Below are positions 1,514 to 2,709 of a stretch of 64,000 bases of DNA, piece by piece (the first letter of the stretch is position 1; each line of letters starts with the position of its first letter). The stretch lies in NCBI GenBank assembly GCA_000004985.1, contig GG738863.1, one strand, 5' to 3'. Both the position numbers and the translations under genes were made by a program. The DNA is from Naegleria gruberi. Lineage: Eukaryota. The notes beneath the pieces were generated by a model. That model searched no databases. It saw only the letters and a list, made by a program, of their open reading frames with translations, and was not told the origin of the DNA.

Positions 1514-2709
1514 TTACAAATCCAATGAATGGATTTTGTCCATGACAGTTTCAACAATACAGAGATTATCTTGAGTTTCGTATTCGTAGAGTAAACCCAT
1601 GGAAGAATCGTTTAGTTCAATAATACGCTCAGAACCATCTTTGAGTTTCATAACATCGAGAGTAAACAAGTCGAGACCTCCAAACAGTTGAGATACTTCA
1701 TCCATCCACAATCTATTGATTTAGAATAAAGTTTAGAATAAAATTTAAATGAATACTTACTTGTATCGTTCTTCAATAGTGTCGAGTGCTTTGAATTTCA
1801 TAGCTCCCCAATTCTAAAATATTAAATAATCAATTTCTATATTCTAAACTTACATTCTTCCATGAAGAATCACTACTTCTTTGATAAACTCTATAATGAT
1901 TTCCAATTTTTTGTAATCTCAAATCATAGTCAACTTGACAAAATGGCTCACAAGTAAAATAATCCTTATAAAGAGCCAGAACTGTTGTAAAATCAGTGAA
2001 ACTTGACTTGGTGTCCAATTTTTGTTTACCAAATCCTGCATGAACAGTTCCAACTTTACAAACAACTGGAAATTCTTGTGGTGTTGTCTTTTTCAGATTA
2101 AATTAAAATGAATTGTATTCAAGCTCCTTACCTTTTCATTCTCATCAAAGAAATCAGTGCTTCTAATGTTAGGATAATAAATTTGTGGAATGAGTGGGAA
2201 ATTTTCAAATCCTCCCAATTTCTTTTGAATTTCCTTCAATTTTCCATAAATAATTGGTTTTTCACTGCACATGTAAACAGATTCCAATGAATTAACAGCA
2301 GGAATATCTAAATTTACGATAAATAATCATCAAAATTCAATTATTTCCATTAAATAATCCAAAATTCAATAAGAAACCTACTTGCAAACATTAAACCAAG
2401 TAAAACATTTCTAAAAGTTTCAGTGTGGAGAGAACTTGGGAAATTTCTAACCAAAACAAAATCTGGTTTGAAATCACGATCCTTGGATTGTTGGCTGAAC
2501 ATGGAATCATTCTTTGCCTTCAATTCCAATATTGGACCATATTCACTATTAGAAACAAGTTTAATTTCCTCCCAACCAGCTTGTTCAACCTTGATCTTTT
2601 TACCTTGTTTTGTTGTCTTGTTTGCAAATAATTTGTACCAATTTGATTGATCCGATTGATTATAGTCAATAACTAGTAAATTAAATGAAGATGTTGTAAC
2701 TTGATGACA
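1514..2709 (-). CDS. Synapsin-like ATP-grasp protein (synapsin C-domain homologue). Multi-exon gene span with at least 4 exons; the terminal exon is 1514-1711.
   Basis: Minus-strand ORFs 1514-1711, 1830-2018 and 2093-2287 plus the 2300-2690 region join through GTAAGT/GTAGGT...AG introns. The joined protein aligns with the metazoan synapsin C domain as I recall it: WYKLFANKTTKQGKKIKVEQAGWEEIKLVSNSEYGPILELKAKND...DRDFKPDFVLVRNFPSS vs [23 protein letters not shown]...[82 protein letters not shown] vs [108 protein letters not shown] vs [40 protein letters not shown]. The N-terminal start is unresolved: the candidate ATG at about 2709 is out of frame with the LLVID exon. Confidence 0.7.

What the first reader, a model, noticed from the sequence alone, without database searches (positions are those of the whole stretch)
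1514..2709. Synapsin C-domain (ATP-grasp) homologue in what looks like a non-metazoan genome
The spliced minus-strand gene encodes a protein collinear, over about 300 aa and at about 40-50% identity, with the ATP-binding C domain of metazoan synapsins. This includes the near-invariant blocks AEPF-D-KYD-R-QKIG-NY-AY-R, W-D-S-FGGLD and DG-IIE-SSM-L. Synapsins are regarded as animal or holozoan synaptic-vesicle proteins. The rest of the window (PLB-like protein, SHAQKYF Myb, DUF4116 repeats, N-rich proteins, abutting genes) looks amoebozoan. A bona fide synapsin-type ATP-grasp enzyme here therefore points either to a deep pre-metazoan origin of the family or to an unusual acquisition. The N-terminal synapsin A/B regulatory domains appear absent, so this would be the enzymatic core only.
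Basis: partly seen in the sequence, partly recalled or inferred. Interest (0 to 1): 0.65.

Follow-up and report, generated by a model that had tools for sequence, protein, structure and literature searches.

The report
Known Naegleria synapsin-like ATP-grasp gene

Summary

It is not new. The window is Naegleria gruberi scaffold_19. The protein is XP_002678240.1 / NAEGRDRAFT_66720 / UniProt D2VCX0 "AM20". Candiani et al. 2010 (PMC2825198) published this locus and sequence as a C-domain-only synapsin relative, together with the Entamoeba one.

The host is a heterolobosean, not an amoebozoan. Orthologues lie in synteny in N. fowleri, and relatives occur in Heterolobosea, Amoebozoa and Metamonada. 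This argues for old inheritance rather than an odd acquisition.

Three things are added here:
- The reference gene model's 28-nt first "intron" probably patches a 1-nt indel at window 2697.
- Non-metazoan members keep the canonical ATP-grasp Lys/Arg/Asp/Glu-x-Asn set, which animal synapsins have altered. An active enzyme is therefore plausible (inferred).
- Close homologues sit on genuinely archaeal contigs of Asgard MAGs. No paper in the held library mentions this.

Verdict: already known, low interest as given. The Asgard link is the lead worth following.

The parts
2708..2710 (-). ATG start codon of the public model and of the corrected reading
   Evidence: Sequence. The public model XP_002678240.1 is reproduced exactly from the window when translation starts here.
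2382..2710 (-). Exon 1, encoding the N-terminal subdomain of the synapsin C domain (Pfam Synapsin PF02078)
   Evidence: Translation and Pfam. The N. fowleri orthologue has one uninterrupted 110-codon first exon.
2673..2700 (-). 28-nt GT..AG 'intron' used by the public gene model to restore the frame; probably an annotation artefact
   Evidence: Splicing it gives MSS|IIDY and removes the conserved FNLLV strand. Its 5' site is GTTACA, whereas the four other introns start GTAAGT, GTAAGG or GTAGGT. N. fowleri has no intron at this position.
2697..2697 (-). Single extra A relative to a 99%-identical environmental Naegleria contig; it causes the frame problem
   Evidence: DNA alignment A1 of the window against L002. 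Deleting this base gives MSSSSTSSFNLLVIDY..., identical to P0122 at the N-terminus.
2308..2381 (-). Intron 1 (74 nt, GT..AG, phase 1)
   Evidence: The position is conserved in N. fowleri.
2132..2307 (-). Exon 2
2088..2131 (-). Intron 2 (44 nt)
   Evidence: The position is conserved in N. fowleri.
1854..2087 (-). Exon 3. It holds the ATP-binding Lys and glycine-rich loop ([17 protein letters not shown]), the EPF hinge and the DLRLQKIG motif. Codons: K170 2057-2055, K180 2027-2025, E206 1949-1947, R216 1919-1917 (numbering of XP_002678240.1).
   Evidence: These residues are invariant columns in the 48-sequence non-metazoan alignment.
1814..1853 (-). Intron 3 (40 nt)
   Evidence: The position is conserved in N. 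fowleri.
1761..1813 (-). Exon 4
1713..1760 (-). Intron 4 (48 nt)
   Evidence: The position is conserved in N. fowleri.
1514..1712 (-). Exon 5 with the stop codon TAA at 1516-1514. It holds the metal-site residues D274 (1657-1655), E287 (1618-1616) and N289 (1612-1610).
   Evidence: D274 and E287 align with rat synapsin I Glu373 and Glu386, which bind Ca2+ (PMC9678998).

Best explanation
This is the Naegleria gruberi gene NAEGRDRAFT_66720 (XP_002678240.1, UniProt D2VCX0 'AM20'). It encodes a roughly 320-330 aa protein that consists only of the synapsin C domain, which is an ATP-grasp fold.

Shown:
- Family membership.
- The fold.
- Orthology and synteny within Naegleria.
- Presence of relatives in several protist supergroups.
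- Absence of the animal-specific A, D and E regions.

Inferred mechanism: the protein binds ATP and Mg2+ between its central and C-terminal subdomains. Binding uses the canonical ATP-grasp residues: Lys170, the Gly-rich loop and Lys180, Glu206, Arg216, Asp274 and Glu287-x-Asn289. It acts as an ATP-dependent ligase, less probably a kinase, on an unknown substrate. The most likely reaction is RimK/LysX-like addition of an amino acid to a carboxylate of a peptide or protein.

My probability that it is catalytically active is about 0.5. The confidence figure below refers to the identity, membership and vertical-inheritance part of the statement.
For: Identity:
- The window exons translate exactly to XP_002678240.1.
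- Candiani et al. 2010 list N. gruberi scaffold_19:385514-386710, which is 1197 nt, the length of window 1514-2710. They print the same protein.

Membership:
- Pfam Synapsin_C 4e-50 and Synapsin 1.7e-21.
- PDB synapsin II, I and III at 3e-64 to 1e-59.
- The AlphaFold model has pLDDT 91.6 and pTM 0.90.

Vertical inheritance:
- The best hit is N. fowleri at 80% identity, followed by Willaertia and Acrasis.
- N. fowleri has the same gene order: Myb gene, synapsin-like gene, then a 507-aa gene. It also has four introns at the same four positions.
- tblastx shows collinearity over more than 10 kb.
- CDS GC is 0.33 against 0.326 for the window.

Catalytic set:
- K, GxGK, E, R, D and ExN are invariant in 48 non-metazoan sequences.
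- Among short non-Asgard forms of 380 aa or less (presumed protists), 88 of 92 with a residue at the position keep Asp, and 88 of 92 keep Asn. All Asgard forms keep both.
- All 94 aligned animal forms with A or E domains have Lys or Glu instead of Asp, and 83 of them have Val or Met instead of Asn.
Against: - No enzymatic activity has ever been found for any synapsin (established knowledge).
- Conserved ATP and metal residues are also needed for plain ATP binding, which in animals controls oligomerisation (PMC9678998). Their conservation therefore does not prove catalysis.
- No substrate, expression or localisation data were available here.
- The 5' end of the gene is unsettled in this assembly.
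Confidence: 0.9

Rival explanations
1. The protein is not an enzyme. It is an ATP-regulated oligomeric scaffold that links membranes or vesicles to actin, as the C domain does in animal synapsins. On this view the conserved residues serve nucleotide binding only.
For: - The model superposes on the synapsin II C domain at 1.8 A rmsd.
- ATP and Ca2+ binding at the same site controls synapsin I oligomerisation (PMC9678998).
- The UniProt name 'AM20' marks, to my knowledge, the amoeboid-motility phylogenetic-profile gene set of the N. gruberi genome paper (Fritz-Laylin et al. 2010). That paper is not held, so this could not be verified.
Against: - Animal synapsins bind ATP while lacking the canonical Asp and Asn. 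Near-invariance of exactly these residues outside animals is therefore more than ATP binding needs.
- The IDR that drives vesicle clustering in animals is absent.
- Homologues in Asgard archaea sit among metabolic genes.
Confidence: 0.35
2. The gene is a pseudogene or is N-terminally defective in this strain. The frameshift at 2697 is real, and the protein is not made or lacks its first strand.
For: - The ATG frame stops after 9 codons unless a 28-nt non-consensus intron is spliced.
- That intron is shorter than the four confirmed introns of this gene, which are 40-74 nt.
Against: - The rest of the gene is intact, with every family-invariant residue present.
- The only two exon-1 substitutions relative to the environmental contig are synonymous, TAC/TAT and TCT/TCG.
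- A single-base assembly or allelic indel is the simpler explanation.
Confidence: 0.07
3. The gene reached Naegleria by recent horizontal transfer from an animal, or it is animal contamination of the assembly.
For: Synapsins are best known from animals. A survey of 13 opisthokonts found synapsin only in animals (PMC7934909).
Against: - There are orthologues with conserved synteny and intron positions in N. fowleri, and an orthologue in N. lovaniensis.
- In the tree the gene groups with Willaertia and Acrasis. Metazoa form a separate clan with 100% bootstrap support.
- Base composition matches the host.
- The animal-specific domains are absent.
Confidence: 0.02
4. It is a generic RimK- or glutathione-synthetase-type ATP-grasp enzyme that only superficially resembles synapsin.
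For: Some JGI metagenome relatives carry the automatic name 'glutathione synthase/RimK-type ligase-like ATP-grasp enzyme'.
Against: - No RimK or GSH-synthetase Pfam model is hit, whereas the synapsin models score 170 and 77 bits.
- The profile search against PDB gives synapsins at 1e-115 and the next family, ArgX, at 6e-5.
Confidence: 0.01

Closest known systems
C domain of animal synapsins I, II and III (PDB 1auv/1aux, 1pk8/1px2, 1i7l/1i7n, 2p0a; Pfam PF02078 + PF02750)
   Same: - Same fold and length, collinear end to end, at 37-41% identity.
- Same ATP-binding Lys, Gly-rich loop, EPF hinge and QKIG motif.
   Different: - No A domain with the PKA/CaMK phospho-site, no B linker, no proline-rich D region and no E domain.
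- The metal site is the canonical ATP-grasp Asp...Glu-x-Asn. Animals have Glu or Lys at the Asp position, and vertebrates have Val or Met at the Asn position. Protostomes have His at the Arg position.
Protist C-domain-only synapsin relatives. These include E. histolytica XP_652171 (Candiani et al. 2010), N. fowleri FDP41_002792, N. lovaniensis C9374_003099, Acrasis kona 'Synapsin', Paratrimastix 'synapsin IIb', and Pelomyxa and Planoprotostelium 'synapsin II'.
   Same: The same single-domain architecture and the same catalytic-type residues. The window gene is the N. gruberi member of this published group.
   Different: Nothing essential differs. The Naegleria/Willaertia/Acrasis-1 type has a short insert (DFFDENEKTTPQE) before the Lys strand and a WKNNWG motif. 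It groups with a Balamuthia-type clade.
RimK, and the LysX/ArgX amino-acid ligases that act on protein C-termini (PDB 4iwx, 3vpb, 5k2m)
   Different: Identity is only 13-16%. No Pfam RimK hit was found, and no carrier-protein or S6-like partner is known.
Asgard archaeal synapsin-like proteins (e.g. Ca. Lokiarchaeota JW839_18070, Ca. Hodarchaeota ACFFCS_23305, Ca. Heimdallarchaeota OEZ01_15365)
   Same: Both Pfam synapsin models are matched. Length is 296-300 aa, identity to the window protein is 36-47%, and the invariant residues are the same.
   Different: They are intronless genes on archaeal contigs. They form a separate clan with 99.5% bootstrap support and collapse into a single 50%-identity cluster.

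Membership tests
Synapsin C-domain family (Pfam PF02078 Synapsin + PF02750 Synapsin_C) | Significant match to both Pfam models above their gathering scores | tested here: met
   Synapsin_C scores 170.6 bits against a cutoff of 22.5. Synapsin scores 76.8 bits against a cutoff of 23.
Synapsin C-domain family (Pfam PF02078 Synapsin + PF02750 Synapsin_C) | Three-subdomain ATP-grasp fold that superposes on solved synapsin C domains better than on any other ATP-grasp family | tested here: met
Synapsin C-domain family (Pfam PF02078 Synapsin + PF02750 Synapsin_C) | ATP-binding residues: Lys strand, GxGK loop, EPF hinge and QKIG | tested here: met
   These are invariant columns shared with animal synapsins in alignment A2 and in alignments A3 and A4.
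Synapsin proper (animal synaptic-vesicle phosphoprotein) | N-terminal A domain with the conserved RRR(L/F)S phosphorylation site (Pfam PF10581) | tested here: not met
   There is no PF10581 hit. The protein starts 8-10 residues before the C domain, whereas the animal sequences in A2 carry NFLRRR(L/F)S.
Synapsin proper (animal synaptic-vesicle phosphoprotein) | C-terminal proline- and glutamine-rich disordered region and E domain (DTMKNLRKTFAGIFGD) | tested here: not met
   The protein ends 6 residues after the last helix of the C domain.
Synapsin proper (animal synaptic-vesicle phosphoprotein) | Glu or Lys at the position of rat synapsin I Glu373, which gives Ca2+-dependent or Ca2+-independent ATP binding | tested here: not met
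   The window protein has Asp here (D274 in reference numbering). All 94 aligned animal forms have Lys or Glu (PMC9678998).
Synapsin proper (animal synaptic-vesicle phosphoprotein) | Association with secretory or synaptic vesicles and with actin | not testable with these tools
   This needs localisation or biochemistry in Naegleria.
Catalytically active ATP-grasp ligases (RimK/LysX/GshB-like) | Canonical Mg2+ ligands Asp...Glu-x-Asn plus the catalytic Arg of the D-x-R motif | tested here: met
   R216, D274, E287 and N289 are present and invariant in non-metazoan members.
Catalytically active ATP-grasp ligases (RimK/LysX/GshB-like) | Demonstrated ATP-dependent ligation, or a recognisable substrate or carrier partner | not testable with these tools
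   No assay was possible. No conserved partner gene was seen in Naegleria. In Loki-type archaea the gene follows gatA-gatB, but only in closely related genomes.
RimK family (Pfam RimK) / glutathione synthetase | Match to the family's own profile | tested here: not met
   No such Pfam hit was found at E up to 1.

The most novel reading that the evidence does not exclude
The synapsin C domain is not an animal or even a purely eukaryotic invention. It is an ancient ATP-grasp enzyme shared by Asgard archaea and eukaryotes, and so an unrecognised 'eukaryotic signature protein'.

On this reading it is kept with an intact catalytic centre in Asgard archaea and in amoeboid or phagotrophic protists such as Naegleria. 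It was lost from most other eukaryotes, including the sampled unicellular relatives of animals. In animals it was rebuilt into a vesicle scaffold, with Asp changed to Glu or Lys, Asn lost in vertebrates, and A, D and E regions added.

The single-domain Naegleria and Asgard proteins would then be the tractable route to the long-sought enzymatic activity of synapsins.
Probability: 0.3. Interest if true: 0.75.

Novelty: already known. Interest (0 to 1): 0.28.

Why it matters
Its value is as a reminder. Statements such as 'synapsin is found only in animals' rest on opisthokont-only sampling (PMC7934909).

Two points could matter beyond that:
- Whether synapsins are or were enzymes has been open since the 1998 crystal structure. 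Non-animal members keep the full ATP-grasp catalytic set that animal synapsins have altered, so they are the forms in which to look for an activity.
- Homologues on genuine Asgard archaeal contigs would move the origin of the family to before eukaryotes, or would reveal eukaryote-to-Asgard transfer. I found no mention of either in the held literature.

Tried and rejected
- Start codon. I first read the ATG frame straight through, and it stops after 9 codons. An upstream exon spliced in from 2770-2790 was considered and dropped once the environmental contig explained the frame by a single missing base.
- Amoebozoan origin. Rejected by the exact protein match to N. gruberi.
- Contamination or HGT from animals. 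Rejected by synteny, conserved introns and the tree.
- Eukaryotic contamination of Asgard MAGs. Rejected for contigs from four MAG assemblies. Two Loki-type contigs carry archaeosine TGT, DnaG-type Toprim, Roadblock, Arf/Ras GTPases or TrmB. A third carries only metabolic genes with the same gatA-gatB arrangement. The Hodarchaeota contig carries Ras/Roc and FtsX. One look-alike metagenome contig (P0136) proved eukaryotic, with G-alpha, RasGEF and Ank genes.
- Rooting the family tree. Not attempted, because the nearest outgroups are only 13-16% identical. The NJ backbone is unresolved, with supports of 5-38%.
The public model sequence was used instead.
- The N. gruberi genome paper and a Naegleria review could not be read. 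The meaning of 'AM20' therefore rests on my memory.
- The representative-library search added only the family size and the compactness of the Asgard clade. It gave no taxonomy.

Full report
**1. What is in the sequence**

On the minus strand between 2710 and 1514 lies a five-exon gene. The exons are 2710-2382, 2307-2132, 2087-1854, 1813-1761 and 1712-1514, with the stop TAA at 1516-1514. The four introns measure 74, 44, 40 and 48 nt, and all are GT..AG.

The joined product matches Pfam Synapsin_C (PF02750, E 4e-50, 170.6 bits, cutoff 22.5). It also matches Pfam Synapsin (PF02078, E 1.7e-21), which despite its name is the N-terminal half of the C domain. The only other family listed is R2K_3, at 0.0038 and below its cutoff.

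Its own refutation criterion, a generic RimK or GSH-synthetase best hit, is not met.

**2. Where the window comes from, and prior knowledge**

The best database relative is N. fowleri FDP41_002792 at 80% identity, followed by Willaertia magna and Acrasis kona.

Candiani et al. [quoted passage not shown] They describe each as a single domain similar to the C domain. Their supplement gives the locus as JGI scaffold_19:385514-386710. That span is 1197 nt, exactly the length of window 1514-2710. The protein they print is identical to mine from IDYNQ onwards.

An exact-sequence look-up returns EFC45496.1 / XP_002678240.1, 'hypothetical protein NAEGRDRAFT_66720 [Naegleria gruberi]', UniProt D2VCX0 'Uncharacterized protein AM20'. 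Translating the window with the public exon structure reproduces that protein exactly.

To my knowledge, 'AM' names come from the amoeboid-motility phylogenetic-profile gene set of the N. gruberi genome paper (Fritz-Laylin et al. 2010, Cell 140:631). I could not read that paper.

The host is thus a heterolobosean (Discoba), not an amoebozoan, and the finding is already published.

**3. The gene is native and old**

- The N. fowleri locus has the same order and orientation: a Myb gene, the synapsin-like gene, then a 507-aa gene.
- tblastx shows collinearity with the window over more than 10 kb.
- The N. fowleri gene has four introns at the same four positions.
- CDS GC (0.33) equals the window GC (0.326).
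- Named relatives occur in several groups. Heterolobosea: Naegleria (three species), Willaertia and Acrasis (two paralogues). Amoebozoa: Entamoeba, Balamuthia, Physarum, Pelomyxa and Planoprotostelium. Metamonada: Paratrimastix and Tritrichomonas. Animals also have them.
- In a neighbour-joining tree (46 sequences, 303 columns, 200 bootstraps), the window protein sits inside a heterolobosean group. Metazoa are a separate clan at 100% support. The backbone is unresolved.
- A survey of 13 opisthokonts found synapsin only in animals (PMC7934909). Candiani et al. also found none in Monosiga. The distribution is therefore patchy, which fits ancient origin with many losses.

**4. The 5' end**

The ATG at 2710-2708 is out of frame with the strongly conserved first strand FNLLVIDY. 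Read straight through, it terminates after 9 codons.

The public model bridges this with a 28-nt intron at 2673-2700 (GTTACA...CTAG). That gives MSS|IIDY and deletes the conserved residues.

Several results suggest the bridge is an artefact:
- An environmental contig (ENA ERZ929261, L002) is about 99% identical to the window and lacks one A, at window 2697. It then reads MSSSSTSSFNLLVIDY from the same ATG.
- N. fowleri and N. lovaniensis start MSSQP..FNLL(I/V)IDY, and N. fowleri has no intron there.
- The other two exon-1 differences between the window and L002 are synonymous.

I conclude that the 28-nt intron is most likely an annotation patch over a 1-nt indel, caused either by assembly error or by allelic difference. 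A real defect in this strain is a minor alternative.

**5. How it probably works**

Alignment of 48 non-metazoan members leaves 19 invariant columns. They include the following (numbering of XP_002678240.1):
- the ATP-binding Lys (K170);
- the glycine-rich loop GxGK (G177, G179, K180);
- the hinge Glu (E206);
- the Arg of D-x-R-x-QKIG (R216);
- an Asp (D274);
- Glu-x-Asn (E287, N289).

D274 and E287 align with rat synapsin I Glu373 and Glu386, which co-ordinate Ca2+ together with the ATP phosphates (PMC9678998).

I ran a census over 228 family sequences, sorted into classes by length and sequence motifs:
- Short non-Asgard forms of 380 aa or less (presumed protists): 88 of 92 with a residue at the position keep Asp, and 88 of 92 keep Asn.
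- Asgard forms: all keep both residues.
- Animal forms with A or E domains: at the Asp position, 65 have Lys, 29 have Glu and none has Asp. At the Asn position, 54 have Val, 29 have Met and 7 have Asn.
- The five protostome sequences in alignment A2 have His at the Arg position.

So the non-animal proteins carry the canonical ATP-grasp catalytic and Mg2+ centre, and animal synapsins carry a modified one.

By profile (ArgX 3vpb, 6e-5) and by structure, the nearest enzymes are RimK and LysX/ArgX. These add amino acids to carboxylates of proteins.

My best-supported mechanism is an active ATP-dependent ligase of unknown substrate (inferred, about 0.5). The main rival is an ATP-regulated oligomeric scaffold, as in neurons (about 0.35).

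**6. Asgard archaea (followed outside the window)**

A pattern scan of GTDB species genomes found one relative. It lies on contig JAOUKW010000014.1 of a Ca. Heimdallarchaeota MAG. It is an intronless ORF cut by the contig end (Synapsin_C 1e-66), next to a GNAT acetyltransferase and a PAS-HisKA-HATPase_c kinase.

Searching with that ORF found full-length proteins of 296-300 aa carrying both Pfam synapsin domains. Named examples are Ca. Lokiarchaeota JW839_18070, Ca. Hodarchaeota ACFFCS_23305 and Ca. Heimdallarchaeota OEZ01_15365 (partial). Unnamed NCBI, JGI, ENA and Logan sequences were also found.

Their contigs look archaeal:
- A 52-kb contig carries archaeosine TGT, ArsA, a Toprim protein, EPSP synthase, chorismate synthase, and gatA-gatB immediately upstream of the synapsin-like gene.
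- The Lokiarchaeota contig carries gatA-gatB two genes upstream (a 413-aa unannotated gene intervenes), plus Roadblock/LC7, an Arf/Ras GTPase, PIN, HIT and TrmB.
- The Hodarchaeota contig carries a tandem Ras/Roc GTPase and FtsX.
- A third Loki-type assembly carries the same gatA-gatB arrangement immediately upstream.

These sequences form one clan (99.5% bootstrap) that is not nested in any supported eukaryotic group. They are compact, however. In the 50%-identity library they collapse to one representative, with a drop from 521 to 364 bits to the next hit. A profile search found no further named archaea.

Only one paper in the held library contains both 'synapsin' and 'Asgard', and it is unrelated. 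Supplementary ESP tables and subscription papers were not searchable.

The data fit two readings and do not separate them: archaeal ancestry of the family, or one old eukaryote-to-Asgard transfer.

**7. Verdict**

- Observation: confirmed.
- Interpretation: partly supported. It is non-metazoan, core-only and of deep origin. It is not amoebozoan, not an odd acquisition and not new.
- Novelty of the finding as given: already known.
- Interest: 0.28.
- The most novel reading not excluded is an Asgard-eukaryote ATP-grasp enzyme that animals turned into synapsin (probability about 0.3, interest if true about 0.75).

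Noticed in passing
window 2673-2700 and base 2697 (minus strand): The public gene model XP_002678240.1 uses a 28-nt non-consensus intron to restore the frame. A 99%-identical environmental contig (L002) lacks one A at 2697 and reads MSSSSTSSFNLLVIDY from the same ATG. N. fowleri has no intron there. The model's N-terminus (MSSIIDY) is probably wrong.
   Followed up: yes
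L003:20-655; L004:10001-10891; L007:6873-7763; L008:4862-5764; L011:8154-9044; L010:4049-4948: Synapsin-C-type ATP-grasp genes lie on archaeal contigs of Asgard MAGs (Heimdall-, Loki- and Hod-archaeota labels). They are 36-47% identical to the window protein, are intronless, and keep all invariant catalytic-type residues. They form one clan at 99.5% bootstrap support. I found no mention of them in the held literature.
   Followed up: partly
L004:6992-10891, L007:2557-7763, L011:5126-9044: In three Loki-type assemblies the synapsin-like gene lies downstream of gatA (Amidase) and gatB on the same strand. It follows gatB directly in two of them; in L007 a 413-aa unannotated gene intervenes. In two of the three a TPP enzyme and a 4HBT thioesterase converge from the other side. 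The genomes are closely related, so the linkage may not be functional.
   Followed up: partly
alignment A2 and the 228-sequence census; window codons 1657-1655 and 1612-1610: The canonical ATP-grasp Asp and the Asn of Glu-x-Asn are near-invariant in protist and Asgard members. In all animal synapsins sampled the Asp is replaced by Glu or Lys. In vertebrates the Asn is replaced by Val, Met or Thr. The five protostome sequences aligned have His at the catalytic-type Arg.
   Followed up: partly
NJ tree; P0007 and P0138 (Acrasis kona): Acrasis kona has two divergent paralogues. The Naegleria/Willaertia/Acrasis-1 type groups with a Balamuthia-type (amoebozoan) clade at 100% bootstrap rather than with other protists. 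This hints at ancient paralogy or transfer between amoebae.
   Followed up: no
P0012 (Balamuthia mandrillaris) and P0224 (Tritrichomonas musculus): Two public entries that carry both synapsin Pfam domains are named 'Asparaginyl-tRNA synthetase, cytoplasmic'. This looks like propagated misannotation.
   Followed up: no
window 1-10200 versus L001 (N. fowleri VFQX01000030.1): Gene order is collinear between N. gruberi and N. fowleri over more than 10 kb around the gene. The shared genes include a PX/Vps5 sorting nexin, an OB-fold protein and a Myb protein upstream, and a 507-aa protein of unknown function downstream, whose ATG is at window 1455.
   Followed up: partly
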